A DNA stretch of 53,562 bases, the filler included, from Stramenopiles sp. TOSAG23-6 (Eukaryota), in NCBI GenBank assembly GCA_900128565.1. It is 3 parts of 3 records of this genome, joined end to end, with 100 filler letters (N's around TTAATTAATTAA, not from the genome) between each part and the next. Parts side by side here need not be neighbours in the genome. Positions count along the whole stretch, not along the records: positions 17,931 to 35,702 come from LT636074.1; 2 more parts are not named here. One strand, given 5' to 3'. Position 1 is the first letter of the stretch. Each line of letters starts with the position of its first letter. Below the pieces are notes generated by a model. The model saw nothing but the letters and a program-made list of their open reading frames with translations, searched no databases and had not been told where the DNA came from. The position numbers and the translations under genes were made by a program. Below are positions 3,523 to 27,666 of this stretch, piece by piece.

Positions 3523-6244
3523 ATGAAGCTTGAGCTCTCAGTAGACACTGTAAAAGGTGAACATGACACCCGGTCATCAGTGCTCTCCTATCTTAGCAGC
3601 AAGTCGGCTCGGATAAAATGCGACGAGTTATTTTTAACGTGGTGCTCTGAAAAGAGAACAACTGATCTTATTCTTGGTTTTATAGATACAATTGCCAATG
3701 GAGACACTATAGATGGTAATGAGCTCTCTCCAAGACTATTCTTTCCATCAAAGTCTCCTCATGGTGAAGCCAATGGTTCTCCAACTCTATCCCCACCACC
3801 GCTTTCACCCTCAGCAATACGTACAAATAACCGTAAGCAACTTTCCTCTCAGAATAAAGCTGATCATGATAATAATATCGCTGCTTTATCTATGCTATCT
3901 GTTTCTTCTTCTTCCACAGTTCTTCGAGCAGCGGGATCTACTGATATTGCACCGAAAGTATTATCGCCGACTCGTATTGACCATACTAAAGAAACGAAAG
4001 GAAATGGAATGACAAAAAGTGTTGAAGGACAACACGGTGAAAAGAAAAATGATTCAGTAAATGAGCAAACAATTTTAAGAAAGGCCGAAGAAGCGTTGAG
4101 TGTTGATAGTGATGAAGTTGAGCACAAAGAAAATAACATAATAAACCCTGACGGAACCTCAAAAGAAAATAACATAATAAACCCTGACGGAACCTCAAAA
4201 ACTCTCGTGGAGGTTCAACAACCCCGAAAGAAAATTCGACATGTCTCATCAATGGATGAAATACCGCAGTTCTATCATAAAAAAAAGGATATACCTCCTT
4301 CTTCTAGAGTCGTAACTGCTCATATAGAAGCCATTAAAAATGCCTTTTCATCATTTCCAGAAACTCAGAAAGGAATTTTGTTAGCTGATTTCGTGTGCAT
4401 AGCCAAAACACTCTGGGGTATTCCAACATTTATGTGTCCTCTTTTATTCCGACAGATTATATTACACAAAGACAAAGAAGCAGATATAGAATCATTGGAA
4501 AAAAGGCGAAATCAAGTCACGACAAATTCATCAGATGAACAAGTACGTTTTCATCATGAATTTAATTTTTTTTTCATACGAAATTTTGTACCTAAACAAA
4601 AAAGATTTTTTTTTTGAGTTTTTATTCAATACGTTTTCATCATATTTTTTTTACCTTTTTTTTGTAAAAATCATTTCGTACCTAACAAAAAAAATATTTT
4701 TGAAATATGTTTTCGCAATAAATGGTGCAAATGTAGGGCCCCGTGTGACAGTGACTGATGCAATTCACTTTTATCACCATGGCCTTAAACCATTTTCTCA
4801 TACAGAAAGAAGTATGTTTTATTTTTTTTCAATTTCGAATTTATTTTCGTACGAAATTTTGTACCTAACAAATTCTAGTTTTTTTTTTTTTAAATATTTT
4901 TCCAAAATACAATGTTTCGATTACTGAAAAGACCAGGTGTGGATTTTCTTACTTTTGATGATTTCATGCCTATGCTAGAAGAACTTCTAGCATATCATGT
5001 ATGTTTCCATCATTGATTTTATTTTTTTTGGTAGAAAATTTTGTACCTAACGATTTTTTACTGAATAAAAACAAAATATATATTTTTCACAATACACCCA
5101 GGTCTCGAATTTTTAGAATCAACGCCTGAATTCCAAGAAAAGTATGCGCGTACCGTAATCACTAGGATATACTACGTGTGCAATCGCGCTCAGAATGTTT
5201 GTTTTATCATTGATTTTTTTTTTTTACGATGAAAATTGAAAGATTTCGTATCTAATGATTTTCACATTGTAGAAAATATTTTTTAACTACACATGGTCAT
5301 TTAACTTTGAGTGAACTTGAACGCTCAAATCTTGTTGAAATGATGACTGTTGTTGACGAAGAAGAGGACATTAATAAGGTGGAACAGTTTTTTTCATATG
5401 AACATTTTTATGTTGTTTATTGTAAGTTTTGGGAACTTGATACTGATCATGATTTTTTATTGACACCAGCTGATCTTCTTAGATATGGAAATCATTGTTT
5501 AACAAGAGGAATTGTCGATCGTATTTTTGAGAAAGCAATTCGGCCCTTGAATCCAGGTCCCCCTGATAAAATGACGTATGAAAATTTCTGTTATTTTTTT
5601 CTTTCTGAGATAGACAAGTCAAATCCAATATCTATACGATATTGGTTTCCATTAGTTAATGTAAATTGTGATGGTGTGTTCGTTTTCGTCATTCATTTCA
5701 AATTTATTTATTTTTAATACAAAATTTTGTACCTAACGATTTTTGTAAACCCAAAAAAACATTTTTTTCATAATACATAATTAGGCATCGAGAAATGAGA
5801 GAAATGTATGCTGAGCAGCTTCAAAGAATGGAATCATTAGGGCATGAAGTTGTGCCATTTGAGGATGTTATGTGTCAAATGTGTGATTTACTACAACCTG
5901 CAATTCCAGGAGAATTTCGTGTTCGTGATTTTGTACATTGGGATAAGATTGAAAATTCAGGTGTATTTTTTGACATGTTATTTAATCTAAGTGAATTTCT
6001 TGCGTATGAGCAAAGAGATGTTTTTGCACAAAGACAAATGAAACAAAATGAACCAAATACAACACCATGGGAAAGGTATGCTAGAGACGAATATGCGAGA
6101 TTAGCGATGGAAGAAGAGATGCGTGAGATGGGTGTTTCTGATGAAGACAATGAATTCAATGAATTTGAGCATACCGATGAACTTGATAACTGGGGGACTG
6201 GTAGTCGTATCATGTATGATGGTGAAATGGAAGATGAAAAGTAA
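3523..6244 (+). CDS. PPP2R3: Protein phosphatase 2A regulatory subunit B'' (PR72/PR130 family; exons 3523-4542, 4724-4811, 4913-4998, 5098-5196, 5295-5677, 5779-6244)
   Basis: [50 protein letters not shown]-hands and [17 protein letters not shown] are hallmark B'' motifs. Confidence 0.93.
4126..4200 (+). repeat. 36-bp in-frame tandem duplication ([12 protein letters not shown] x2)
   Basis: aaagaaaataacataataaaccctgacggaacctca occurs twice. Confidence 0.9.
4812..4912 (+). other. Non-canonical GT-AA intron
   Basis: aga a|GTATGT...AATACAA|tg ttt restores [11 protein letters not shown]. Confidence 0.78.
4999..5097 (+). other. Non-canonical GT-AC intron
   Basis: cat|GTATGT...AATACAC|cca ggt restores the conserved HPGLEFL. 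The CAG 4 nt downstream would cause a frameshift. Confidence 0.85.
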
Positions 6245-9400: not shown

Positions 9401-12400
9401 ATTCTCCTTTTCATTTTTGCCTTTCTTTGTTTTTTATTCAACCTCCGTACATTATTCGATGCAACGGCCGATAAATTTTCGTCGGTGTTACTATTTTCAC
9501 TCTCTGATGAACTATTACTGCTCTCTTCTTCTTCACTTTTTGACTCATTTTGAACTAAACCCTCTTCTTCGGAACTAGATTCATCATTATTATTATCTGT
9601 GTCAGTCGCTTCGCTAAAATCTTCATTTTCCAAATTTCCATTTTGGTCCTTCTGCTTAGCTTTGAGGAATTTTCGCAATTGTTTACGGCGTATTTTATAA
9701 GGAATAGCATTGCCGCTTTTGTCTCGAACCCACGGTTTGCCTCTACCTTCTGTTTCCCATAACATTGTTCCATGATTTGCAGGCGCAATACCTGTGGGAA
9801 ATAATCTATTGCTTCGTTTTATCACCACGGAAATTTCAGTATTACATGGAATAAATAAACCCCTTTTAGCTACCAATATCAATGTGTGTGTGTTTCTATA
9901 CCATGCTGAACTAAAATCTTTGCCATGAGACCCGGATATTGAACATGGTATAATATCATATGCAGATGAAAGACATGGAAGCGTGAATACAATTCGATTA
10001 GAAGATTGAATGGAAATATTTGATTTCCACTGTATCGTAACTTCTGAAATTTGTTTCGCAAAGTTAGGCTTGAAAAAAACGCTTGAGTCATAAAAAATAG
10101 CTTTTGAAGATTCAACCATCTTATGTTCGAAAGCAGAAGTTGCCAGTGCAAGAAGCATTTTGTGTCGCTCCAATGATGTCTTTGCTGTTTCAATTACATA
10201 TGACTCAATTAATAGTTCGTTTTGTAGCGCTTCTTCCCGAGCAATATTTGTTGCAATTACCCTCTCCGCAGCTTCCTTTTCTTCACGGAGCAATTGTTCT
10301 TGCATACTCTCTCGTTTGTAACCTTCAGTATTCTCTGAGCCAATTTCCCGAATACCTTTAGCTACATTTTTCAAGTACCAGTCGGTAAATTCCTCAAATG
10401 TAACACTTCCATCACCACTTGAATCCATCTCAGAAAACGCATCATTCAGTTTTTTATTTGATAGAAAACCCGTTAGTTTCTCGCCAAGCGCTTCCGCAAG
10501 TTTACGCACTTCGTTTTTGTCTAATTCGCCAGATTTGTCTTCATCAAGTTGGTCAAATAGTTTACGAATCTTGCCCATCATCAGTTTTTTTCTTTCAATC
10601 GCACTGTAAGCTTGCCCATTTTCATTGAAGAAGCCTATTCCGAGAGGATCAAGTCTCTTCTCCTTTTCCCTTATGTTTTTTTGTTCATTCAAAATTCGTT
10701 TCTTTTCCTTCTTTTCAGCTTGGATTGCCTTTTGCGATTTACGTTTTTCATCGCGTGCGCGTTCTTTAAGAGTCTTTTTCAATTCTTTTTCTGTGAGTGT
10801 CTTATCATTTTCATCGCGTTTGCGAAGTTCTTCTTTTTTCAGTTCTTCACACCGAATTGTATCAGCTTCAGAAAAAGCAATTTCTTTCATTACCGTTCGC
10901 TGACGATTCTCTTCCCTTTCCATCGAAACTCTTTCTCGTTTCATATTTAAACATTCCTTGTGTTGTTTTTCTTTTTCGCATAAATCTATTCTCATCAAAG
11001 CTACCCAATGACGCTCTTCTTCATCAGAGTCACTAGAAAGACTAGGATCATCCTCTGATGAAGCTAGAGCCTCTTCCCATATTGGAAGTGGACCTCGGTT
11101 TCTTCTCCGAATAGCACGACGTCGTCTTCGAACTATTTGAGCAACGCGCTTACGCTCTTTCTCAACAAGCGCTATAGCATCATCATCTTTGCTCTGGATT
11201 TCTGCCTCACGGCGTAGCTTGAAAAAATATTTCTTGTATTTTTCTTGGGCATCAATAAAAGCAGGTACGAGACATTCAAGCTCACTATGACGCGCACACA
11301 ACTCACTTTCTATTTTTGCTTGTTCGATTGGTGTGATGTCACCACTTCGCATTGGACCAAACGGACGAAGGGCAGCAATACGCGCATCTAAGTAATTTTG
11401 AAGAGTACATTTATCCTTATTGCAAGCTTCCATAGCAGCTTTTGATTTATCCATATTTTCCCGGAGTCTCTTAATCTGAGCATTGTTCCATATATTATCG
11501 AAACTTCTTAGTTTATCTATTAGGTGCTCTGAATTTGAAACATTTTTCTCGCAAAGCTCCTTTTGCTTTTTCAGAGTATCTAAATCTTCTTTCCATTTCT
11601 CTTCCTGTAGAACTTTGAGGTCAGTACGTATATCATCCATGTCATCAAAACAGTCTTCCATTTTTCGTGTTGCATCAGTCAAATCATTATATAATGATAC
11701 CAAAACTTCAGAAACATCCGTGCGTTCTTCTACAACAAATTCATCATAATCTGGTAATGGTTTGAACTCACCTGATGCGTCAGCTTCTTCTTTCCATTGG
11801 GATTGAAATAATTTATCTGCCTTATCTCTTTTTATTTGTGAATTTTTGTGCTTCAGCATAGCATCTTTAAGCATTGAGTTTAGACTACGTATATCTTCAT
11901 CACGCAATGCTGAAATTTTCTTTTTATATTCAACTTCTGCTAGAACTCCTTCGAATCGTCTCTTTGTGGCAAGCCTTGATGCTTTAATGAGTAGTACTCC
12001 TTCAGAATCCGAGCTTGGGTTGGATTCAGATGGTATTGAAATTGGTTGGTCGTATTCTATAACATCCTTTGTTTCTATAAATGGATTAAAATTATACACT
12101 CTCCAATAATCTGTTTCTGCTGATGGACTCGATGCGGTCAAAGCCAAAGCAGCAGCTCGCTTCATTGTATCTTCTTTTGTCCATTTTTTTCCAACCAATG
12201 CAGAAATTATACCGCGTGAATCCTTTTCTTTGTTTCTTTGTTCCAGAATGATTTCTTTATGAAAATTTTCTGCCCATTCGACACTAGAAGTTGTAACCTG
12301 TTTTTTACGATTGACTCGCGCAATAGATGCTGCTTCCAGCTTTTGATTCAAATTAAGTCGCTCTATTTCCAATGGTTTTATAAGGACATCAATGCCGAGA

Positions 12401-15400
12401 ACTTCTTTTTCAGCGACTTTAAGTGCATTTATTGCATTTTTCATTATTCTTTCTTTATCAAGATCTTCTTCGTCAACCATATTAGCTTTTTCCATTTTCT
12501 TTTGAGCTTTACTTAATAATATATCCACATTATTTTTACTTTCATTGAATGGGATGAGCTCTACATTAATTTGCTTGATTCTATCCTCATATAGTGAACA
12601 TTGTAAATAATCTGACTTTTGCATCAAAATTTCTATTACTCGCTTTCGTCTCTCCAATTCAGCACTTGCAGCATATACGCAGAGACTCATGGCGCGTAGA
12701 GCACAAGGAACGACACGTTTCTCATTAAGGTTTGTTTCTTTTGCGAAAAATCTCGACTTCAGTATTTCTATATTATCTGATACATTGTTTTCAAAGGCAG
12801 TAGCTAAATTTGGTGCATCCCCAGGAAGCATCCATTCCTTAACATTCCCTTCGGGGATATTATTTAGCAATGTTTTGTACATTTCTTTGTCTTCTTGTTC
12901 AGCTCGCCTTGCAATATTTGTTAAATCCTTTAAAACTTTAAATGCCTCTTCCGCATTTTTCTTTAATGTCTCAATTCCTTTACGTTCTTTTTTCAGCATA
13001 CTTGCTCGGATCCGTTTGGATTTTGCGAACTTGGTTAAACGTCGAATTATAATATGAGATGATTGATCTTTTTCTGTCTTATCTTTCTTACTTTCGTGGA
13101 AGGCTTGATTCACTTTCTTGGTAGCTTCTACAGCTGCAATTTTCCCACNCTTTTCCATCTCTAAGGCCACAGACGCTTTGGATTCCAGCTGTAAATATGT
13201 CTCACGCGCATCTCGCAAATTTTGTTTTGACAAAATCATGTGTTTGTAAGATTTTTTCCATTTATCATGCGATTTTAATAGAATATCCCATTTTGTTTTA
13301 TGGTTTTTGTGTAACAAGAATCGTTTTCTTTTAGCCTCGATATCGAGTTTGTCATTTTGTACTGAGGCTTCTACATCACTACGAGCGTACATTTCTGATA
13401 TGTACCTCATTGCAAGCATAAAACCCGGTGATTGAGTTAATCCACTTCCTGTAAACTCGCTCAATGAAATTAACTGTACACTCCTAATTTCTTTATTGAA
13501 CGTATCGGTTTTTCCCACACCGTTTTCTTCGAGATCATTTGTTATATGGTTTAAATGCATCGCCGGTTCCACATTATATTGAGAAAGCTCTACTAAACAT
13601 TTAGAACTCTCGCGTACCACATGGTCAAATTGTTTCTGTAACTCTATTTTTTCCTCCATTGTAATTTTCGCCTTTGCTTTAGATTTTCCAAGTGAGCGAC
13701 GCGCAATCATCTTTTTATGTTTTGCAATTTTTGCTTCGCTTTCTGCTTTCCCCAATTCGATTATATGCGCANCCTTCAATGCTTTAGTAGGAATGTAGTC
13801 GATTGCTACTAACGCTGCAAATATTTTATCCTTTTCACTACTTAGACGCGATACTTTCTTTAGGTCTAATTCTTGATTTTCAATCAATATTTGTAATTCT
13901 GAGAGTAATCCTTTAGCTGTCTCTGCTCGTTGTTCTGCTTCAAATCCCAATCTTGCGACGTTTTGAGCATCTTGAAAATGTAATAATCTTTGTTCTGCTT
14001 CTGATTTTGATTTTTCCATTCTTGAAATTTCGTTGTTCGTAAGTTTTAGTAATTCAGTATAATTCTCTAATTTCTTTAATCGTTTTTGTTCCGTCTCTTC
14101 AGAAATAAGTTCGTTTAAGATAAGACGTTTTTTCACCAATTTGTCTCTAATTTGTCTCATATTATTTTGTGAATGAATTAATTGTTCTGTTGCCTCTTTA
14201 TTTGCCGCCTCAGCTTTGGCCAGTGCTTTTCTGTGAGTACTTAAGAGAGACATCTTTATATTAACCCTTTTGAATACTTTAGAAAAACGTTGGAAATTCA
14301 ATTTTGATTTGGACCTTTCTCTATTTCCACTTTTTACTGGAGTTTTAGCTTCATCTGTGACAATTTCAGATGTGTCTATTTGANCAACCGAGTTTTCGTT
14401 TTCGAGTTCTTCTTCATCGGCGTCTACATTTTTCTCTTTCGCAACATCAACATTTGCAGCTGCATCCATTACATTATTCGATGTCTCTAAAACCTTTTCT
14501 TTGGCAAACTTATATACAATTTCTGCATCTTCAAAAGCTCGCTGCAATTTTTTTACAATTGGGCGAAGTTTCGACAACCTCAAAGTTCGTTTTGAAATAT
14601 CAAAAGGCAAGAAGTCATCCTTAATACGGTTGTAAGCCGTAACTAGCTTTTCATATAATTGTGTTTTTTTCAAGTTTCCAAGATTATCATCATTGTTTCC
14701 ATTGACTTCAATTGTTTTGTTATTCCTTTCTACATCATTGTCACTGTTATCCGAATCAGAACTTGAATCATCCTCAGAGCCATCAGCAGCACTGTTAATC
14801 GCACCCATTGTACCATGTATATCATTGTATGCTTTTTCGGCCGCAGACTTTGCAACTTCAACTTTTGATTTGAGTATATCTAAATCATAATCAATTTGTT
14901 GAAGATTGCGAAGTTCTTTTAATTTTAGCTTGACATCGTTTTGATCTTGAAGTAATTTAATTACATCTAGCTTATGATTCCGAATCTCTAGTTCACGAGA
15001 TGCAATTTCCGCAGNCGTGAGCATTTCTTTAGAAATTTGGTCCACAAGGTGTCCTTCTTTCATTTGAGTNGTTTCTTCAATATCTTCTTGTTCAAACTGT
15101 AAATCATCTAACTTTTTTTCCAATGCATTAATTTTTTCTGATTCCAAGATTCTTATACGTCGCCGAGGAATATTGTAAAACTCGCGATCGTTGTTGAGCC
15201 GCACTGTAAATTTAGTTTGGACAATATTTGGGTTTAATGAATCAACGCCTACGATAAATCCANGACGCCAATCGCGGCGATATATTTCATTGTCGCTCTC
15301 TGGACGTTTATATGTTTCGGCATAAGGATCATCNTCAGTGATTACTAATGTTTTAGACAATAATTTCAGTTCTGCAATACTACTACCATCTTTTGTTTTT

Positions 15401-17805
15401 TTGATTTTACTTTTTTTTTTCTTATCATGATCAGATGTAACTCCATCAATGTTAGTATCCACAGGTACTTCCTTTAACTTTTTTTTACGGGCTTTTATCT
15501 TTGTCAAGGAGATTTCACCAAAGTCCTCGTCAGAAGAAGTTGCCATATCTTCTGCTTTTTTGATTTCTGCTTCTAATGCAGCAACCTTTGCTCTTTCTTC
15601 TTCCTTCTTCTTCAAATAAATGTTCCTTGCCTCCTCNGTGGGCATATTATCTAAAAGCATTTTCTCATTATTCTTTTTATTATCTGCTAGGCTCTTTGTC
15701 TTTTTCTCCGCCCTTTTCATTTTCTCAGCTTCTCTAGCCTCACGGAGTCTCTTCTTATCAAAGAAACGCATCCTAGCAGACTCCTCGAGCTTTAAAAGCA
15801 TATCAACTTCTGATGCACGTTTCCGCAGCAGGCGGCGCTTTTGACGGGCAGCGCGTCGCTGAATTTTACCTTCTCTAAGAATTTGTAGATAGGTAGTAAC
15901 AGCATTATTGTCATCTCCTTCTCTCAACTCTTGGAGCTTCTTTAGTTCGTCTTCCTTGCGCCTCTTACGAAAAGCAGATCGGCAAGCAATCCGAAATTTC
16001 TTATTCCTCGCCAATTTTCTAGCATTGTATCCTGCTCTTTCATTTTCTTCCATCCTTGCAATTCTATCTGACTCAAGCTGTTTCTCTTTAGCCTGTCGCA
16101 CAGAGCGTTTATTTAACTTTCGAGTATTGTCAACAACTCGGTCAGGTTTTACAATATCTTCGTCAGATTCGACATTTGAATCAGTATCAGAATCTTTATG
16201 TTCTTTTTCACTATTGGCTTCAACAAAAGAGTTTCCATTGACAATCTTTTCATCATGTTTTTTAGCTAGCTTCTTTTGTTTGTCTGATTCTTTCTTTAAT
16301 TTACTTTTATTAGTCCCGATATATTGTCCATCTTCATCTGGATCTTCATCAGAATCACCAAAACTTACTTCTACAAATGTTGCATCGTATGTAGCTCCTC
16401 GCCGTGGAAAAAGCATTCGTATATTTTTACCCATTCGCTCTCGGCGACGTTCATCGCGGAACCATTGTAATTCCTTTTCTCTATCGGTTTTATGCAAGGC
16501 TTTCAAATCAGCCCTTTTAGCCTTTGTTGCCGCATCTACCATTGCTTTGCGTTCAGCTTTGGATTTTTCCATTTCTCTAATACGATCAATGTTACGGACA
16601 TCTAATGACAATTGATCAGCTTCTATCATGAGCATTCGTCTTTCACTTAATGCAATGCGCATTTCCCGCGTTTCATATGATGCAGCAGTAAATCGGGCAT
16701 TACTTAATGTTCTTCGTGCTAAAGTTACGATTTCGAGTTCGGGTGATTCTCCTTCGACATTATCACTATTATTTATATTCAAATCTTTATCATTCACCTG
16801 ACTTAATACAAAGGCAAGTTGTTTCTCAGCCTTTTCTACAGCAACTCTAAGCGCATTCAGTTCAGCTACTTCTTTTTCAGACTCCATATCTACTTTTTCT
16901 CGTGCACGTGAGTGGGAAAATTCCACAGACATTAATATTTGTTCATACTGTCGCATCACCGCCTCTACAGCTCTATTGGAGGCACGATGGGCAATTGATA
17001 CAGACGACTTTGTTTCACGAATAATCTCTTTAATTCTTTGCTTCAGAGCTTTTGCATCTTCAGCTTCTTTGGCTTCCGCCTCAGCTACTCGACGAGCTTT
17101 TTCATCCGCTTCTTGTTTCTCCCGAGACTTCTTTTCTGCGATTTCGCGCGCATACTTATCTTTACTTTCCCATTCTTCAAGTTCTCTTTTTGCACTTTCC
17201 AAAAGCTTTTCAGCTTCAGCTTTATCGGGACCCTCTTTTGCCAGATTGAAGGCCTCTTTGGCTAATTTTACTCGTTTACGAGCCTGTCTCAAAGCTCTAG
17301 ATGCCAGTTTTGCATCAGTCTTGGCCATCTTTTCTTCCTCTTGTCTATGCAACGCCGCTTCAGCTATTTCACGTTGCATTTGCCGCTTTTTCATGCGTAG
17401 TTTTGCCGCATGTGCTCTCGCTAAAGTCTCTGCTTTTTTTTGGGCTTTCTTCTTTTTACGTTCTATTTCAGCCTGTTTTTCAGCAACCATTCGAAGCTTT
17501 TCCTCTTCTTCTCGTTCTTTTGCATCTATTTCATCTTGAATCCTTTTTTCTTCCCTTTGTTTTTCTCTCTCAGACTCTTGTATGCTAAGCAAGTTTTCTA
17601 ATTTTTGTAATTCCTTTGCAATCAATATCCGACGTCGGCGTTTTTTACTTCCTCCACCCATAGCTCCATCAAGTTTTCGACGTAATTCGAGTAGCTTTGC
17701 AGATAACTCAATAGGGGTCCAAGTTTTGTGCTTAATAATATTGTGTACACCAAGGTTTTTAATATTTTTTGTAGTTGAAATCCGGGATTTACTAATTGGT
17801 AACAC
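6412..17805 (-). CDS. Giant intronless coiled-coil protein with an EF-hand pair, IQ motif, ankyrin-like repeat and C-terminal PPR repeats (5' end truncated by gap)
   Basis: 11.4-kb ORF containing FDQLDEDKSGELDKNE and MDSSGDGSVTFEEF (EF-hands), LQRFVRGFIHRRR (IQ), ATELLLLRGASLD (ankyrin-like) and PKLTTYNSVLDACSRASQWKRAMSVF (PPR). Confidence 0.85.
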   Translation of the reverse strand: MLPISKSRISTTKNIKNLGVHNIIKHKTWTPIELSAKLLELRRKLDGAMGGGSKKRRRRILIAKELQKLENLLSIQESEREKQREEKRIQDEIDAKEREEEEKLRMVAEKQAEIERKKKKAQKKAETLARAHAAKLRMKKRQMQREIAEAALHRQEEEKMAKTDAKLASRALRQARKRVKLAKEAFNLAKEGPDKAEAEKLLESAKRELEEWESKDKYAREIAEKKSREKQEADEKARRVAEAEAKEAEDAKALKQRIKEIIRETKSSVSIAHRASNRAVEAVMRQYEQILMSVEFSHSRAREKVDMESEKEVAELNALRVAVEKAEKQLAFVLSQVNDKDLNINNSDNVEGESPELEIVTLARRTLSNARFTAASYETREMRIALSERRMLMIEADQLSLDVRNIDRIREMEKSKAERKAMVDAATKAKRADLKALHKTDREKELQWFRDERRRERMGKNIRMLFPRRGATYDATFVEVSFGDSDEDPDEDGQYIGTNKSKLKKESDKQKKLAKKHDEKIVNGNSFVEANSEKEHKDSDTDSNVESDEDIVKPDRVVDNTRKLNKRSVRQAKEKQLESDRIARMEENERAGYNARKLARNKKFRIACRSAFRKRRKEDELKKLQELREGDDNNAVTTYLQILREGKIQRRAARQKRRLLRKRASEVDMLLKLEESARMRFFDKKRLREAREAEKMKRAEKKTKSLADNKKNNEKMLLDNMPXEEARNIYLKKKEEERAKVAALEAEIKKAEDMATSSDEDFGEISLTKIKARKKKLKEVPVDTNIDGVTSDHDKKKKSKIKKTKDGSSIAELKLLSKTLVITXDDPYAETYKRPESDNEIYRRDWRXGFIVGVDSLNPNIVQTKFTVRLNNDREFYNIPRRRIRILESEKINALEKKLDDLQFEQEDIEEXTQMKEGHLVDQISKEMLTXAEIASRELEIRNHKLDVIKLLQDQNDVKLKLKELRNLQQIDYDLDILKSKVEVAKSAAEKAYNDIHGTMGAINSAADGSEDDSSSDSDNSDNDVERNNKTIEVNGNNDDNLGNLKKTQLYEKLVTAYNRIKDDFLPFDISKRTLRLSKLRPIVKKLQRAFEDAEIVYKFAKEKVLETSNNVMDAAANVDVAKEKNVDADEEELENENSVXQIDTSEIVTDEAKTPVKSGNRERSKSKLNFQRFSKVFKRVNIKMSLLSTHRKALAKAEAANKEATEQLIHSQNNMRQIRDKLVKKRLILNELISEETEQKRLKKLENYTELLKLTNNEISRMEKSKSEAEQRLLHFQDAQNVARLGFEAEQRAETAKGLLSELQILIENQELDLKKVSRLSSEKDKIFAALVAIDYIPTKALKXAHIIELGKAESEAKIAKHKKMIARRSLGKSKAKAKITMEEKIELQKQFDHVVRESSKCLVELSQYNVEPAMHLNHITNDLEENGVGKTDTFNKEIRSVQLISLSEFTGSGLTQSPGFMLAMRYISEMYARSDVEASVQNDKLDIEAKRKRFLLHKNHKTKWDILLKSHDKWKKSYKHMILSKQNLRDARETYLQLESKASVALEMEKXGKIAAVEATKKVNQAFHESKKDKTEKDQSSHIIIRRLTKFAKSKRIRASMLKKERKGIETLKKNAEEAFKVLKDLTNIARRAEQEDKEMYKTLLNNIPEGNVKEWMLPGDAPNLATAFENNVSDNIEILKSRFFAKETNLNEKRVVPCALRAMSLCVYAASAELERRKRVIEILMQKSDYLQCSLYEDRIKQINVELIPFNESKNNVDILLSKAQKKMEKANMVDEEDLDKERIMKNAINALKVAEKEVLGIDVLIKPLEIERLNLNQKLEAASIARVNRKKQVTTSSVEWAENFHKEIILEQRNKEKDSRGIISALVGKKWTKEDTMKRAAALALTASSPSAETDYWRVYNFNPFIETKDVIEYDQPISIPSESNPSSDSEGVLLIKASRLATKRRFEGVLAEVEYKKKISALRDEDIRSLNSMLKDAMLKHKNSQIKRDKADKLFQSQWKEEADASGEFKPLPDYDEFVVEERTDVSEVLVSLYNDLTDATRKMEDCFDDMDDIRTDLKVLQEEKWKEDLDTLKKQKELCEKNVSNSEHLIDKLRSFDNIWNNAQIKRLRENMDKSKAAMEACNKDKCTLQNYLDARIAALRPFGPMRSGDITPIEQAKIESELCARHSELECLVPAFIDAQEKYKKYFFKLRREAEIQSKDDDAIALVEKERKRVAQIVRRRRRAIRRRNRGPLPIWEEALASSEDDPSLSSDSDEEERHWVALMRIDLCEKEKQHKECLNMKRERVSMEREENRQRTVMKEIAFSEADTIRCEELKKEELRKRDENDKTLTEKELKKTLKERARDEKRKSQKAIQAEKKEKKRILNEQKNIREKEKRLDPLGIGFFNENGQAYSAIERKKLMMGKIRKLFDQLDEDKSGELDKNEVRKLAEALGEKLTGFLSNKKLNDAFSEMDSSGDGSVTFEEFTDWYLKNVAKGIREIGSENTEGYKRESMQEQLLREEKEAAERVIATNIAREEALQNELLIESYVIETAKTSLERHKMLLALATSAFEHKMVESSKAIFYDSSVFFKPNFAKQISEVTIQWKSNISIQSSNRIVFTLPCLSSAYDIIPCSISGSHGKDFSSAWYRNTHTLILVAKRGLFIPCNTEISVVIKRSNRLFPTGIAPANHGTMLWETEGRGKPWVRDKSGNAIPYKIRRKQLRKFLKAKQKDQNGNLENEDFSEATDTDNNNDESSSEEEGLVQNESKSEEEESSNSSSESENSNTDENLSAVASNNVRRLNKKQRKAKMKRRIKKRKLREENKPSKELKIMRGLVESEKLFVHCSTYHGDKDRIESTQIMRVNSVVDGDPLSDASDSDSEAGVTHGISVTRLETIKRTMRQMKDLDADKRMFMRQRWETMERQRHKALKSDRIEALIRADRMQILRERKQVARRCTSMVLFHWDLVKKVKGTMRPMRNLQRFVRGFIHRRRARYLRSVRKAQAAWHYYKARQRFQSMQGAVVALQCALSRGLVLNPRELCRAELVCKVWRAKIMSSEVQKSQWRPWFCRLAMSTGTDPAFLAPNITDNWKNCYSSVMIIRRLLCSTDGFAQKNKXWSQLDPKQHALRRAAANTTIGGTKASWNLWKPALVRKIIKMTHHAPRPEYLFSAPVMAAMGSVCWLDRLFRRAWQFPVAAFVATLLSRGLDPDTIVDGSRLLLKCIKWGCADATELLLLRGASLDASPPGHDEPYVLPREYVAQMAKWVKLQHMNIRKGLCKPSPGFGARADGILRIYAMMFGRLFSDTQKKHGSQKKIENIEDVEDINIDVPKKHTNLSPKQRSMKLRHAAMKCKQRWMRDGKHSSHELLVAVKNQIRQAETETSRVIQEREKIMEERIAKVIAASEAKTELADLSIKRHQITESTQLNYDRIKTNSNMIVSQRRVQLCQAKEKLVELEAEYLRFINQALSITEHLSLAESSGWRQRVTKCVEHVGELLQDKSNASHIAFAMRALGLQLPFASGKEXHTELQELRKRCIVYETKRNPAFRAQHSRVTRLKNDLASLEKLKNSQLAELRAKFVDERGDIDDAIQLASKRKKSNGVLQNRRVTNIEKEETERYTIAPDFIANLEVVRKITPTAHVTISDMVKARSLYLRILRDLCKTGKWRESMYVFNVMVQRDIRPDLSTFTAIISTCKYAKPPAADAAVGILWEMKRFQIQPKLTTYNSVLDACSRASQWKRAMSVFKALVNDDLSPNTATYDCLINMAMHAKIEDAPDLYNAMKLSGVPVAISYSAAMKLIQRGAHIELKM

Positions 17806-17830
17806 TTCAACCTTTTGGACAGATTCATTT

Positions 17831-17930
17831 NNNNNNNNNNNNNNNNNNNNNNNNNNNNNNNNNNNNNNNNNNNNTTAATTAATTAANNNNNNNNNNNNNN
17901 NNNNNNNNNNNNNNNNNNNNNNNNNNNNNN
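17831..17930. other. Assembly gap with TTAATTAATTAA linker (17875-17886)
   Basis: N-run interrupted by a 12-mer that has stops in all six frames, a typical contig-joining spacer. Confidence 0.9.
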
Positions 17931-19983: not shown

Positions 19984-20122
19984 TCGAATAACAAATATGT
20001 AATTTCCACTTCAATGTTACTTGTAAAGATATGAAAAACGCGAAGGATCGACAAAAAAAAACCCATAAAATAACGGATAATTTTGGATTTTTCGGTACCA
20101 GGTCACCCAGACCCAGGAAAAT

Positions 20123-23100
20123 ATGAGCACAACTCGTTGTCGTATTGGTTTTGAATGTTTTTCAATAGAAGCACTAAAGCGTACGTTTTCATCTAATTTA
20201 TTTTTTTACTAAGAAAATTTTGTACCTAACGATTTCTTTTACTAAAAAGAAGTATTTTTCACAATACATATTTACGCAAAGATAAAGAATTCTTTTTTCT
20301 TACACCTGCAGCACAAAAAAAAGTCGTTTTGGAAGAATGGAATAAACTCAGTGAGATCGATAGGGACATGATCTGTTCAAAAGCCGAAATTTCTCAAACA
20401 AAAGAATCAAATATTGTCACAGATGACAATGAGTCAACGAAACAGTCACTTAAAAAATTGTCTATGAAGGGAAAGAAAATTAAATGTAAAAATACTTTAT
20501 CTAAAGGCAAAACAACCACAAACACAAAAAGTAAATATAAGAAAAGAAAAGGTAGCAGTAATAAAAAAGTGGTGAAAACTGCAAATACCTCTTTAGTGGA
20601 TCCTCAAATTATTCAAGAAGAAACAAAAGATAAAAACAAACAAAGTAATGTTTGTAAAATTACACATGATTCATCTAAATCTATAAATTCTTCAGTCAAT
20701 GTTATTGATTTAATTGATGTTGACGAAGATTGTATAATGATTGATGAAAGTAAAGGAAAAGTGGATATAGTTGTTATCGATGTCAAAACACCAAAAACAT
20801 TAAAAAAATCAAATAATGTTGCAAATAATATTACAAATAATATTACAAATAGAGAAAATAGTGGAAATGGTTCAATTTCTATCGACAAAAATATCTCTCA
20901 AAATGATAAAGATTTGATTGAAGAAAACAAAATTAAATCTATTCCTATGATGTTTCGTACCAAATCACAAAAAAATCAACTTAATATACTACAAAGTCGT
21001 CGTTTAGAGCGGGAAAAATATGAAAAATTAAGAAAATTTGATCAAGCACTGAATCAAAATAAAACTTTAAATCCGTTTTTTGATAGAGAAAAGCGACGTT
21101 TAGCAGCAAAAAAATGTCAGAGATCAAATTCTTTTGGCAGTGAAAAATGTACGTTTTTATCATGGATTTAAATTTTTTTTTTTTTTGGTAGAAAATTCTG
21201 TACCTAATGAATTGTTTTTGTGACATATTTTTCCACAATAAATATATCCCTCCTCAATTTATTCACAAACATTGGAATTTAGTTGAATTTCCGTCCCAAA
21301 TGTTGGGATTAAAAAATCATGTGTATGGTGATAATAAAACTATCTGTGATAAGGATGATGAAACTGTCGTGATTTTCCCCATCAATTATATATGTTTTCA
21401 TGATGAATTTCAAATTTATCTTTTTTCATACGAAATTTTGTACCTAACAAAAAACAATTTGAAATATTTTTTCACAATACATTCTTCTGTCGCGAAGAGT
21501 ATGTGTGATTGGATTGATAAGAAACCAGAGAAGAATAATATAGATGAAGTAATTGATATAAACACTCAAGAAAATCTGGATAGCAGTAGTGGCATTTTTT
21601 TTTCAACTGCTCTTTTGAATGGGGAAACAAAAAAATATTTAGGAAAAAAAGTAAATGTTGTAGATATAACTCTTGATGAAAATAATTGTGAAAATAGTAA
21701 AGTTTTACATGATAATTGTCACACCGTAATGTCTCGAGCATTACCTGCTGCCGTTTCGACATTTATTAAATCGAATAAAGTTCAGAATGCAATCCTTGAT
21801 ATTACTAGAGGTAGAGAATTTAATTCAAAATGTAGTACTAATAAAGAGGATAAAGAACAAGATGATGATGATGATGATGATGATATGAAGGAACTGGATG
21901 CAGAATATGCAACAACGTTGTCAATGTTTACAATGGCTGCAATGCGACGTTTTTCAATGGGTGACGCAAATGTGTGGCATTCAGATTGGAGTCATAAATA
22001 TCGTCCTAGGTGTACGTTTTCATCATGAATGTTTTTACCTAAATTGTTTTTTACTAGAAAATTTCATACCTAACGATTTTTTTGTATGGAAAAAAATGTA
22101 TATATTTTTTTATAATACATGTACGTTTCATATGAATTTCTAATTTAATTTTTTTTCGTACGAAATTTCGTACCTAACGATTTTTTTTTAAATATTTTTT
22201 TATAATACATGTGTCGGAGACATTATAGGAAAACATAATCGAAATGAGGCTGAATCTTTACTTACATGGTTGTACGTTTTCATCATTTCAATTTCGAATG
22301 TATTTGTTTTGTACCAAATTTTGTACCTAACATTTGTTGTACACCAAAAACCAAATATATCTTTTTACACTAATTGAGGGAATGGAAACAACTTCATTTG
22401 GGTCAACGTGGTAGACAAAATGTATCAAATAAAAGTAGTTATGGCTCTTATGGTATAAATTTATGGTACGGATTTGATGATGGTGATAGTAGTGACGAAT
22501 CAGAATTAAGTAATGGTTGTTTACTCACTGGTCCTACTGGTTGTGGCAAGACTTCATTAGTATATGCATGTGCAGAGATGCTTGGAATTAGAGTTATTGA
22601 AGTTCATGCTGGTTGTAAAAGATCTCGCGCGGATATATGTATGTTTTCCAGTATGAATTTCAAATTTATTTTTGTGTAGTAAAAAATTCTGTACCAAACT
22701 TTTTTTTTACTCAAAAAAAAAAAAAAAAAAATTCACAATATAGTAAGACTCTTTGGCGAAGCAACGCAATCGCAACGTTTGACTTTAGATTCAAAAAATA
22801 AGAATAAAAAAAGTAAACAAAAAACTACATGGCATGTACGTTTTTAAAATTGAATTTTGTCTAATTTTGTTTCATGCGAAATTTTGTACCTAACAAAAAG
22901 AATTGTATAATTTTGTTTTCCACAATACATGTTGCTCGAGATGACGATACACCGAAAAAGATTGCAAAAAGATTGGACGTAAGTGTCAAAGACATTCTAC
23001 TACTAAATAATGGGAAGTCTGGAACAGAAAAATTGTACATGTCTGCTCGTTTATACAAGGGAACGAATGTAAAAGTTCCTGTTGAAAAGCAAAAAAAGAA

Positions 23101-24834
23101 AAAGAAGAAATCAAAAGCTTCAAAAGCGAGAGAAAAAGCTCTACAAAGTACGGAAACATCGACTGAAGCAAATTTTAGTATTATTTTATTTGATGAAGTT
23201 GATCTCGATTTTGAAGAAGATTTGGGTTTTATCGCTGCTCTTCGAAATCTTCTTCGATCTGCAAAGTGTCCAGTTGTTATGACTGCAATTACTAGACCGA
23301 ACTCTTTGACTGAAAATTCTACTATTGATTTACGAACTTTACATTTAATACGACCTGATAAATTGGTACAACTTCGCTGGCTTCGTGTAATTTGCCTTGC
23401 TGAGGGATTAAATGTAAAAAGTTCAATGTTACAAAAACTTCTTGAAAATTCAAGTTTTGATGTGAGACGTTGTTTAAATGAATTACAAATTTGGTTTAAT
23501 AAATTGCCACCGGTACAAGAAAGTCGTTCCTCAAGGCATTGTAAAGATGATACTTTATCGATACAATTAAAGATCCCACTTCTTGAGATTTCGTATGGTC
23601 AATCTGGATTAGATGATATTCCATCGTATAGTGGTAGAAGTGCTGTTGAGGGAATGGGGGATTTACGATCTCTATGGTGTTCCGTGTTACCACAATTATG
23701 TACTCATTGTAGAATTGCATCTACTGTGGTGAATATAGAGGGTGGTTTTTATGATACACAAAATTATACATCTACTGATATGAAGTGTTCATTGATGAAT
23801 CTTAAAAGTAAAAAGAATAGTAATAAGAAGAAAAAAATTGCCTCGAATGGACGTCGTAGACTTCGAAAAGCATGTGTGTCAAGTTCTGATGATGATTTTG
23901 AAGATCCACCAATAGCACAAGATGATAATGAAGAAAAGATTAAACATTCTGATGATGATTTTGAAGATCCACCAATAGCACAAGATGAGACTATAAATGT
24001 CATTAAAAGTGAAAAAGATAAAATAAGACCACTTCGTCGTACAACACCTCTGACTGATACGGAACACTTATCTAATGTAGAATTTTCTATTATTTCAAGT
24101 GTATCATCATTGACGTCAGATGTCGATGCAATAGTATCCTTAAATTCTCTGCAACGTCGGGGGTGGAGCAGTTGTTCTTTAGCAGATTCGCGAGACAGTG
24201 AGAGTAGTGAAGATCTGGAAATGTGGCATCATTCAAATCTTGCATCAGAAATTTCCGCAGAACTTTTTGCATTGCAAGGTAAAGTGTACAATAATAAAAT
24301 TTCTAATATTGTAAGCAAAGTCCCAAATGAAGTAAAAACTTCAGAACCAATTTGCCCTACAGCTGCTCAGAATTATTGCGAATATGCTATACAAGTAGAA
24401 AACACTCGAGATAAATTTCGTATACAATGGGAGGTTATATTAGACCTATCATTCAGAAATGATTATGAAAGATGTTTTGTAGAATCTTTGTCTAAGCGTA
24501 CGTTTTTATCATGAATTTCAAATTTAGTTTTTTTTTCGTACGCAATTTTGTACCTAACATTTTTTTTTGATATTTTTTTTACAATACATGTTCTGTAGGT
24601 AATAATAATATGTCAGGCGCCGGAGTACTACGACTATCACATAAAGGTATCGATGAACTTTCTGGTCTACGGTCAATTTGTGAGTCCTGGCAGTTGAATA
24701 GTAAATACATGGCATCTCGTCGTCGAAGTAAAAGAGCACGTCTTCACTATTTAGTTGATGGTGCCCGAACTTTTCTTACGGATGAAGACGTTGCGACAAT
24801 TACAAGATCTGGAATATCTAGTGATGCACGGTAG
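20123..24834 (+). CDS. ATAD5: ATAD5/Elg1-like (RFC1 family) AAA+ clamp loader/unloader large subunit with LysM-like insert (exons 20123-20180, 20270-21148, 21244-21389, 21483-22011, 22211-22271, 22376-22638, 22744-22835, 22931-24497, 24590-24834)
   Basis: WSHKYRP, LLTWLREWK, Walker A GPTGCGKTSLVYACA, RS..DIL..FGEATQSQR, Walker B ILFDEVD, AKCPVVMT and DVRRCLNELQIW. The start codon is uncertain. Confidence 0.82.
22012..22210 (+). other. Two back-to-back family introns (22012-22120, 22121-22210) with a zero-length exon
   Basis: ...TATAATACAT|GTACGTTTC..., each unit with its own branch motif. Removing both gives KYRPRCVGDIIG. Confidence 0.85.
22272..22375 (+). other. Non-canonical GT-TT intron
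   Basis: tgg tt|GTACGT...ACTAATT|g agg restores WLREWK. Confidence 0.72.
22639..22743 (+). other. Canonical GT-AG member of the intron family
   Basis: ata t|GTATGT...CACAATATAG|ta gives DILRLFGEATQS. The AG falls in the same register as the AT of other members. Confidence 0.85.
23885..23988 (+). repeat. In-frame 41-bp direct repeat, 63-bp spacing (SDDDFEDPPIAQD x2)
   Basis: tctgatgatgattttgaagatccaccaatagcacaagatga occurs twice. Confidence 0.85.
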
Positions 24835-25048: not shown

Positions 25049-27666
25049 TTATTTTCTTCCATCGCTAATAGGCCATATACTAGAGTTCCTTTTACGATAA
25101 AATAATTGGTATGCTCTTGGAGATATAATATCACTTACATCACGAACTTTTGTGCATGAAGAGTCATTAAAATTATACCATTGGTTATTTTTAAAGTTCT
25201 TAGCATATGCTGTGTAGTGTCCCCCTCCAAGACCACCTGAATGATTAGATACTGCAAATAAATCATATATATAATCATCATCATTCGTTGCTGACATTAC
25301 AAATGGAGAAAGATCAAGACCTTCCAAGGGGAAATCGACCATTGATGATATTTTATCACGAGTAACACTATGTTTTCTCCATCCTTGACTATAGTGAAAA
25401 CGTTTTAAACCTACAATGAAAATCTCAGGTACAGACCATAAACCTAATTGTTTATATGCGCGAACGTGTTTTTTACACTTATTACAATACCATTCATTCT
25501 GTTCATCAAGCTGTTCTTCTGCAGCAAAAGCTGAGAAGCACGATGCTATATTGAGTGCGCTTGATTTATTACAGCCACGTCGAGGCATAGATGAATGCAT
25601 AACAACATGTGAAAATGTACTGTAAAAAAATATTTAAAATTTTGTTTTGTTAGGTACAAAATGTTGTACGATTTGTTTTCTACAATTCATGATGAAAACG
25701 TACATGCTGCTTGATCAAAAGAGTTATCAAAGCCTTCGACGGTCCATTGCACCACAATCATTTTGTCTTTGAAAGATGTGGTAACGACATCATCATTTTC
25801 AAAAACTTCTTTCAATTTTGAATTTCGAGAGGAATATGATGAGTATCCTTTTTGTTTAGATGAACCTATAGCAAGTTTAAATGGAAGCCTTTGGGAATTA
25901 TAACCGGATCCAACTTTTACGTATTGTTGCATATATTTCCACACTAGAGTATGCATTTCCCTTCCAGTACAAGTATTGTGAAAAAATATTTCAAAAAAAA
26001 ATCGTTAGGTACGAATTTTCGTATGAAAAAAACAATTAAATTAGAAATTCATATAAAACGTACAACGCCTGGGGAAAACAAGGACAAGAGTATGCCCAAA
26101 TGATTCTCCACGAGAACCAGGTGATCCTAGACTAAATATCTTTTTATCTTTTGGAGCTTTCGGTTTTTGTTGATGAACTTCTATTGCAACTCTACCGATA
26201 CCAAGGGCAGTTTTATGTGAACCTAATTCAACCATACCAATTTTTTTACTCTCATTTACCCACTCATCTGCAGTCAATCGGCCAGGTTCAACATTCGAGT
26301 TAAAGTCACCATCTGCAAATTGAACCTCAAAAGTTCCATCATCATTGACACTATCAATCCAGCCATTAAATTCATTACCTGTCATACATATATTGTGAAA
26401 ATATATTTCTTTTGTATAATTTGTTAGGTACGAAATTTTTATAAAAAAAAATAAATAAATTCGAAATTGAAAAAATATAAAACATACTATTCCATCGACA
26501 TCTAACTTTTAAACCTTTCACGAAATTACCATTGGCTCTAGCTTTGGCTTCATCACTGGATCCTCCTTCATACGGATCAGGCTGATTCATTTCGAGTTCA
26601 TATATAAATGTTGTAGCTCTAGGACGAATTCGTTTACATTTTTCTGAATTATTTCGTGTTGTATTAATCCTCACAACTCCAAGATTATCTGTCATATCAG
26701 CACAAACAAGAGAATCAACACCACCGGAAATACCACTCATCACAACTACAGCATGTTTCAAATCAATTATAGTACTATTTTTAATTTCTACACGAGGTTG
26801 GCATCTAAGTGGAGGTCTAGCTGGATCTTTAAAAACTACAGTCACTTCAATGGGTCTTGTAGTAGGCAATGGTAACGGTAGAGATACTGTCATATATGGA
26901 TCAAAAGTAATGCTTTCACGACTACATTTGTTACACTTAATGTGACTTCGAAGTTGTCCAAAAAATGTATCTGTGATAAATGATTTATTACGTCGAAGGT
27001 GCCCATCCCATGCTAATTTCGCAATAACTTCATCTGGTCGTCCATCTGATTCAATGACTGGCTCGTATGGTTTTTTCTTAATTAAATTACAATCTTCATG
27101 TAAGCCATCCAACAAAAACGTCATTAATTCTTGAGCATCTTGTTGATTGTATCCCGCAAAACTTGAATTATATTCACCAATTCGTTTTTTAAATTCTGCA
27201 GGCACACAAACTGAATAATCACCTGACCAAACGGCATTAATAAGATTTGCGTACGTTTCAGTCATCCGACCACCATAACCAATTTTATTATCTTTATTTA
27301 TTGAGTCTTCATATTTTCCAGATAAAAAAAATGTGGATAGAGGCTCACAATTTGAAAGACATTGAAGAATAGAGTTCATAAAACAAGTATTACCTAAATT
27401 CCTTAAACCAACAGCTCCTTCAATTGCTGGAGATCCAATTGTATGAGCTCGAACATTACGTGTATTTCTACTATTATAACGACGACCAAATTGTGATTGT
27501 TGCTTTACGTGTGTTCCATATCTTTGTAATTCATCACTGTCAAATGTAAACCAAGTATCAGTACTTTCATCACTTTTATCCCAATGTAGTTTTACACGTT
27601 TTCCTCCATGTATTGAGAAAAAATATGTTTTATATTCTATACATATTTGTTAGATTTAGAATTTTC

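What the first reader, a model, noticed from the sequence alone, without database searches (positions are those of the whole stretch)
22012..22210. Two complete introns back-to-back with no exon (recursive splice site AT|GT)
22012-22120 and 22121-22210 each have a full 5' motif, branch hairpin and TATAATACAT end. The junction is TACAT|GTACGT. Both must be removed to restore the RFC-box motif KYRPRCVGDIIG. This suggests re-insertion of an element at the end of another, and either recursive splicing or single-step removal.
Basis: partly seen in the sequence, partly recalled or inferred. Interest (0 to 1): 0.75.

Follow-up and report, generated by a model that had tools for sequence, protein, structure and literature searches.

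The report
Back-to-back AT-ending introns, rewired U1
Two copies of a mobile intron sit end to end in a DNA-replication gene of a marine protist whose introns mostly end in AT instead of AG and whose U1 splicing RNA has changed to match, so the end of almost every intron is also a preferred landing site for the next copy.

Summary
Confirmed. 22012-22120 and 22121-22210 are two abutting introns in an ATAD5/Elg1-like RFC gene. Only removal of both gives a frame that matches a homologue without a gap. The pair is not unique: 23 abutting pairs were seen in this genome, among about 6,200 introns of one transposon-like GT-AT family with a 2-nt target duplication. This scan had already noted both the GT-AT family and such pairs on other DNA of this genome. 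New here: (1) the only U1 snRNA found reads AAACGUACAUG, the exact complement of CAT|GTACGTTT. CAT|GT is therefore this organism's CAG|GT, and the junction is a perfect acceptor plus donor. (2) Pairs are no commoner than target preference predicts. (3) Partners are not whole duplicates, but 8 of 22 share their last 14 bases (1.7 expected). Here the second copy is probably the newcomer, with its 3' end copied from the resident. Two-step removal is likelier than one-step, but no read shown covers this junction. One other non-AG intron is spliced in RNA contigs.

The parts
21483..22011 (+). Upstream exon of the ATAD5/Elg1-like RFC large-subunit gene, ending ...KYRPR plus the first base of Cys; exon end GGT
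   Evidence: (40% identity to P0020 633-742)
22012..22120 (+). First intron (109 nt, GT-AT), probably the older resident; hairpin decayed
22066..22074 (+). Branch motif ATACCTAAC of the first intron; predicted branch A 22073 (inferred)
22102..22120 (+). 19-nt 3' end identical to 22192-22210; its last 12 bases occur in 16 genome matches against 6,202 for the general pattern
22118..22128 (+). Zero-length-exon junction CAT|GTACGTTT: acceptor of intron 1 and donor of intron 2, 11 of 11 complementary to this genome's U1 5' arm
22121..22210 (+). Second intron (90 nt, GT-AT), probably the newer insertion; in frame but carries stops
22158..22173 (+). 6-bp hairpin GTACGA-AATT-TCGTAC just before the branch A of intron 2
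22170..22178 (+). Branch motif GTACCTAAC of the second intron; predicted branch A 22177 (inferred)
22211..22271 (+). Downstream 61-nt exon (CVGDIIGKHNRNEAESLLTW)
20000..24830 (+). Host gene (approximate limits), 1293-codon frame after removal of 9 introns: 6 GT-AT, 1 AT-AT (21390-21482), 1 GT-TT (22272-22375), 1 GT-AG (22639-22743)
   Evidence: (AAA, AAA_lid_RFC1 below cut-off)
25971..26063 (-). Family intron (93 nt, GT-TT as predicted) whose removal is seen in RNA contigs of two samples of one study; no GT-AG placement fits
4543..4723 (+). Double-unit intron (181 nt) with two branch cores, an inner donor-like site and no intact inner acceptor; member of a repeated composite type

Best explanation
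The two units are copies of an introner-like element (about 95 nt, ends GTA..TAC, 2-nt target duplication, usually AT) that supplies most of the introns examined. They are spliced by the major spliceosome under a shifted code: U1 differs from the Rfam consensus at positions 2, 5 and 9 and pairs with CAT|GTACGTTT, and the acceptor is YAT. Because the element prefers AT|G targets and nearly every intron ends in CAT, each intron's own boundaries are hot spots. A second copy landed at the 3' boundary of the first, and its last ~19 bases were then replaced by the resident's, most simply by conversion from the single-intron allele. The RNA loses the two units in two ordinary reactions in either order; both intermediates keep valid sites. 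Shown: sequence, frame, U1 sequence, recurrence, duplication signal, shared ends, splicing of one other non-AG intron. Inferred: U1 pairing in vivo, insertion order, conversion, two-step removal.
For: Frame and homologue. In 165 sampled introns: GT-AT 118, GT-AG 6; exon -2 is A in 72%, -1 is T in 80%; frame open at the predicted end in 122 of 144 against 38-55 at +/-1 or 2. Non-AT intron ends equal the exon's last two bases in 13 of 31 against 1.1 by permutation. U1 arm; it pairs better than the Rfam consensus in 164 of 165 donors, median -9.6 against -1.9 kcal/mol; its contig carries a family intron; U2, U5, U6 core motifs are standard. Zero spacer: 14 real pairs of 16 matches, against 9 matches over spacers of 1-30 nt, about 50-fold; predicted from target preference about 34-fold. 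Last 14 nt identical in 8 of 22 pairs against 1.7, 0 of 20,000 permutations; in 7 of those 8 the second copy is the one closer to the family, against 4 of the other 12 (Fisher 0.028).
Against: No read or contig shown spans the focal junction in DNA or RNA. Composite ~180-nt introns lacking an inner acceptor exist (15 matches, about 12 loci), so one-step removal of this length seems possible. Donor positions +2 to +7 were fixed by my search pattern, so only -3 to -1, +1 and +8 test U1 independently. The age proxy rests on a 650-kb sample. No transposase was looked for. Terminal inverted repeats are only 3-4 nt.
Confidence: 0.62

Rival explanations
1. Same origin, but the 199 nt leave in one step from the outer donor to the second branch point and acceptor; the inner CAT|GT is a silent relic.
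For: Double-unit introns with two branch cores and no intact inner acceptor recur at unrelated loci, and removing 4543-4723 in one piece restores the frame. U1 bound at 22118-22128 would cover the inner acceptor (inference). The first copy's hairpin has decayed.
Confidence: 0.2
2. The pair arose without a new insertion: a tandem duplication of one intron that then diverged, or a template switch from the resident's end into another copy's 5' half and back.
For: Shared rare 3' end; shared tracts reach 37 and 52 nt in L014 and L011; partial internal duplications occur.
Against: Whole-intron similarity of partners is no higher than random pairs (1 of 20 at p<=0.05; focal p 0.31); the second copy's nearest relatives lie in other genes (0.75 against 0.48 to its partner). 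This counts against plain duplication but not against a template switch.
Confidence: 0.12
3. Assembly or amplification chimera joined two family copies.
For: Fragmented assembly (6,236 contigs) with thousands of similar AT-rich repeats and duplicated contigs; no independent read at the junction.
Against: Flanks join in exact frame with the homologue; 19 of 20 complete pairs leave an open frame when both units are removed; the junction is base-exact in 23 pairs.
Confidence: 0.06

Closest known systems
Recursive splice sites / zero-length exons (Drosophila ratchet points, consensus (Y)nNCAG|GTAAGT; PMC5126111, passages)
   Same: Acceptor directly followed by donor, no exon between.
   Different: Here the site is CAT|GT, joins two ~100-nt mobile units rather than dividing a long intron, each unit has its own branch point, and stepwise use is not shown.
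Introner elements of Micromonas pusilla and others (PMC11282704, PMC3879977, passages)
   Same: Thousands of similar introns; one splice site taken from the target duplication; nested or merged copies are reported in Micromonas (its supplementary figures S16-S17 not seen).
   Different: 2-nt AT duplication gives a non-AG acceptor; very short terminal repeats; Micromonas U1 is reported as standard (10.1101/2022.06.08.495308, passages).
Non-canonical transposon-derived introns of Fritillaria borealis (PMC13326754, abstract and first part of Discussion)
   Same: Genome-wide escape from GT-AG under the U2 spliceosome; acceptor from a target duplication.
   Different: There the adaptation is U2AF duplication and m6A changes, and the two U1 versions have identical 5' ends; here the U1 sequence itself differs.
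Co-evolved U1 of Entamoeba (ACAAAC) and Mastigamoeba (ACGUAC) (10.1101/2022.06.08.495308, passages)
   Same: U1 changed to match an atypical donor; the ACGUAC core is the same as in Mastigamoeba.
   Different: Here position 9 is also changed and pairs with exon -1 T, which mirrors a YAT acceptor; the passages read describe intronic positions only.
Fungal stwintrons (PMC7138796 passages; PMC8469720 listing only)
   Same: Complex intervening sequences removed by consecutive U2 reactions, some with abutting donors.
   Different: Neither unit interrupts a signal of the other, so no order is forced.

Membership tests
Recursive splice site | Acceptor directly followed by donor, no exon | tested here: met
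   (in this organism's CAT|GT code)
Recursive splice site | AG|GT consensus | tested here: not met
   junction is AT|GT
Recursive splice site | Lies inside a long intron | tested here: not met
   199 nt in all
Recursive splice site | Exon-to-site intermediate and separate lariats | tested here: inconclusive
   contigs only, no joint shown at this place, 69 joints not shown
Introner element | Many similar introns at unrelated sites | tested here: met
   6,202 matches against 76 for the reversed control; shared ends and cores
Introner element | Target-site duplication | tested here: met
   13 of 31 against 1.1
Introner element | Terminal inverted repeats | tested here: inconclusive
   only GTA..TAC (3-4 nt) in the logos
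Introner element | Absent at the same site in relatives; cognate transposase | not tested
   no orthologous DNA found; transposase not searched
Stwintron | Inner intron interrupts donor, branch point or acceptor of the outer | tested here: not met
   both units have uninterrupted signals
U12-type intron | U11, U12, U6atac present | tested here: inconclusive
   none found, incomplete genome and no positive control
U2-type intron | Donor pairs with U1; CTAAC branch motif; U2, U5, U6 present | tested here: met
   (pairing predicted)
U2-type intron | AG acceptor | tested here: not met
   6 of 165 sampled introns end in AG

The most novel reading that the evidence does not exclude
A transposon that duplicates AT has driven this lineage's major spliceosome to replace the CAG|GT code with CAT|GT at both intron ends, with a rewritten U1 as its only U1. 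Abutting copies are transposon-made recursive splice sites in 200-nt introns that are removed stepwise, and half-spliced RNAs are copied back into the gene and overwrite one partner's end with the other's.
Probability: 0.25. Interest if true: 0.88.

Novelty: new variant of a known kind. Interest (0 to 1): 0.62.

Why it matters
The pair alone is an expected by-product of a mobile intron's target choice. What it exposes matters more. A U1 whose exon-pairing base has changed in step with a non-AG acceptor gives a natural test of how the spliceosome couples the two intron ends and of whether transposons can reshape core snRNAs. The 23 short abutting pairs are a ready set for testing recursive against one-step removal with ordinary read lengths, and for following how new introns arise and are homogenised. 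Gene predictors that require AG will mis-model this genome.

Tried and rejected
Orthologous locus in metagenomes: 0 matches. U2-next-to-U1 pattern in metagenomes: 35 matches, 0 of 35 with a U2 core, taken as chance. Family in viral contigs: 0. A canonical U1 5' motif in the assembly: 0 matches (incomplete genome). U11, U12, U6atac: none, no control rang. U2AF1: none of the 11 CCCH loci translated (16 matches) looked like it, inconclusive. A U2AF2-like gene exists, not analysed. Prp8 1301-1700: 1501-1600 differs from human at 3 residues, none recognised as explaining the AT acceptor (which residues contact the acceptor is recalled). Taxonomy: homologue names did not place the organism. AT-AC reading (cut shifted by -2) changes the mRNA at this junction, rejected. 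First pair comparison used wrong automatic boundaries and was redone; first gene model had four wrong ends, corrected. Three of 23 pairs (L005, L015, L131) were dropped from whole-intron tests for truncation, one (L015) from the 3'-end test. Of 31 further candidate loci picked by eye were pairs. High RNA depth over introns reflects thousands of similar copies and is not used. Parts of the gene without RNA cover are not evidence. Literature searches listed no paper on a GT-AT protist with a matching U1 or on base-exact abutting introners; the library lacks most subscription papers.

Full report
Observation. Retaining either unit, or both, gives in-frame stops; removing both gives KYRPRCVGDIIG. 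Removing all nine predicted introns of the gene gives one 1293-codon frame, and shifting any tested 3' end by 1 or 2 bases breaks it (the inner junction was not shifted). The product aligns over most of its length with P0020 (35% identity), with no gap at this junction, and has AAA and RFC1-lid matches; the ATAD5/Elg1 label is my reading of these, not a database name. The hairpin before the branch point is intact only in the second unit.

The splicing code. The window belongs to a 21.1-Mb, 6,236-contig eukaryote assembly; the lineage could not be placed. The branch-plus-end pattern has 6,202 matches against 76 for its reversed control. In 60 fetched regions plus the window (650 kb), 338 branch hits gave 165 unique introns; 125 lacked my donor motif and 22 lacked the end motif. 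Of those 125, the 75 printed include many single-base donor variants and some chance hits. Ends were GT-AT in 118 and GT-AG in 6; the upstream exon ends in A (72%) then T (80%), and the next exon starts with G in 51%. The frame is open at the predicted end in 122 of 144 cases and in 38-55 at offsets of 1 or 2. RNA contigs from two samples of one seawater study skip exactly 93 nt at 25967-26059, slidable by 6; this fits the predicted intron 26063-25971 and no placement is GT-AG. That is the only such joint among the 15 rows shown; 69 were not shown.

U1. An snRNA cluster U5-U2-U1-U4 lies on contig C1146, with its first 664 bases repeated on C6122. The U1 match covers the whole Rfam model (E 4e-13, 54 bits, below the 69.5 cut-off) and its first eleven bases are AAACGUACAUG where the Rfam consensus has AUACUUACCUG. 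The reverse complement is CATGTACGTTT, the donor consensus with its three exon bases. The changes at U1 positions 2, 5 and 9 face intron +7 T, +4 C/T and exon -1 T. Positions +2 to +7 were fixed by my pattern, so -1 T (80%) and +8 T (96%) are the independent matches. This U1 pairs better than the consensus with 164 of 165 donors. The contig carries a family intron, so it is the same organism. No canonical U1 motif was found, nor U11, U12 or U6atac, with the limits of an incomplete assembly. U2, U5 and U6 core motifs are standard. CAT|GT thus plays the part that CAG|GT plays elsewhere, and 22118-22128 is at once an acceptor and an 11-of-11 donor; after loss of the first unit the donor would be GGT|GTACGTTT, the same as the outer donor. 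Earlier notes of this scan report the GT-AT family and several back-to-back pairs in this genome; three look-ups showed none on this U1.

Why pairs exist. Where an intron does not end in AT, its last two bases equal the exon's last two in 13 of 31 cases against 1.1 by permutation: a 2-nt target duplication that supplies the acceptor, as described for introners (PMC11282704, passages). Since introns end in CAT and start with GT, both of their boundaries resemble the preferred target; the summed likelihood ratio is about 34. With one pattern, a zero spacer gave 16 matches (14 real pairs) and spacers of 1-30 nt gave 9 in all, two of them duplicates and the one inspected false. A rough expectation from target preference alone is 46-169 pairs under assumed intron numbers and coding lengths; 23 were seen with strict patterns (17 of 21, 6 of 31). 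There is no excess to explain.

How this pair formed. Partners are not duplicates: 1 of 20 complete pairs is more alike than 95% of random pairs. Yet 8 of 22 share their last 14 bases against 1.7 expected, with identical tracts of 14 to 52 nt; first 12 bases are shared in 3 of 20 (p 0.02). In the focal pair the shared 19-nt end is rare (16 matches of its last 12 bases in the genome). In 7 of the 8 end-sharing pairs the second copy is the one nearer to the family, against 4 of the other 12. With the target ratios (35.5 against 4.1), this points to the second unit as the newcomer, whose end was overwritten from the resident. Conversion from the allele that still had one intron explains the polarity most simply; copying from half-spliced RNA or a template switch would give the same pattern (all inferred).

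Removal. Both two-step routes leave valid sites, and the older first unit keeps its branch motif and acceptor, so I put two steps at about 3 to 1. Against this, a composite type with two branch cores, an inner donor-like site and no intact inner acceptor recurs (15 matches, about 12 loci, one at 4543-4723), which is most simply removed whole. A post hoc hint: +9 is not T in 8 of 23 inner donors against 21 of 165 introns (p 0.012).

Known systems. It works like a recursive splice site (PMC5126111, passages) but fails the AG|GT and long-intron features, and its use is unshown. It is not a stwintron (PMC7138796, passages). Nested or merged introners are reported in Micromonas (PMC3879977, passages; supplements not seen and may show abutting cases). 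Co-evolved U1 is reported in Entamoeba and Mastigamoeba (10.1101/2022.06.08.495308, passages); Fritillaria handles non-AG ends through U2AF and m6A (PMC13326754, abstract and first part of Discussion). Seven searches listed no report of a U1 change at the exon -1 position tied to a YAT acceptor.

Verdict. Real, recurrent, and an expected by-product as a single locus; a new variant of known kinds. Interest 0.62, carried mainly by the U1 and the end-copying pattern.

Noticed in passing
G000:C1146:9-645 (L022, L184); repeated at G000:C6122:1-664: Tight snRNA cluster U5-U2-U1-U4; U1 5' arm AAACGUACAUG, complementary to CAT|GTACGTTT.
   Followed up: yes
window 4543-4723; L154-L168: Composite double-unit intron type with a shared inner segment and no intact inner acceptor at about 12 loci; in several the second unit's 5' part repeats the first's.
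   Followed up: partly
window 21390-21482; sample: Donors vary even at +1 and +2 (AT, GA, GC starts), mostly one mismatch from the U1 complement.
   Followed up: partly
window 22931-23030: Weak LysM match (E 9e-4, below cut-off) inserted inside the AAA domain of the RFC-like protein; the same stretch is present in P0020.
   Followed up: no
window 6412-17874 (-): 3,820-codon open frame with no family intron, with EF-hand-like and repeat-like segments by eye.
   Followed up: no
L153 (G000:C84), Prp8 near human 1440-1452: Cluster of substitutions in an otherwise about 90% conserved stretch; not compared across other eukaryotes.
   Followed up: no
L035 minus strand near 9717: Possible 13-nt exon between two family introns.
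   Followed up: no
L032: The same stretches appear on both strands, suggesting an inverted duplication from amplification or assembly; L063 likewise.
   Followed up: no
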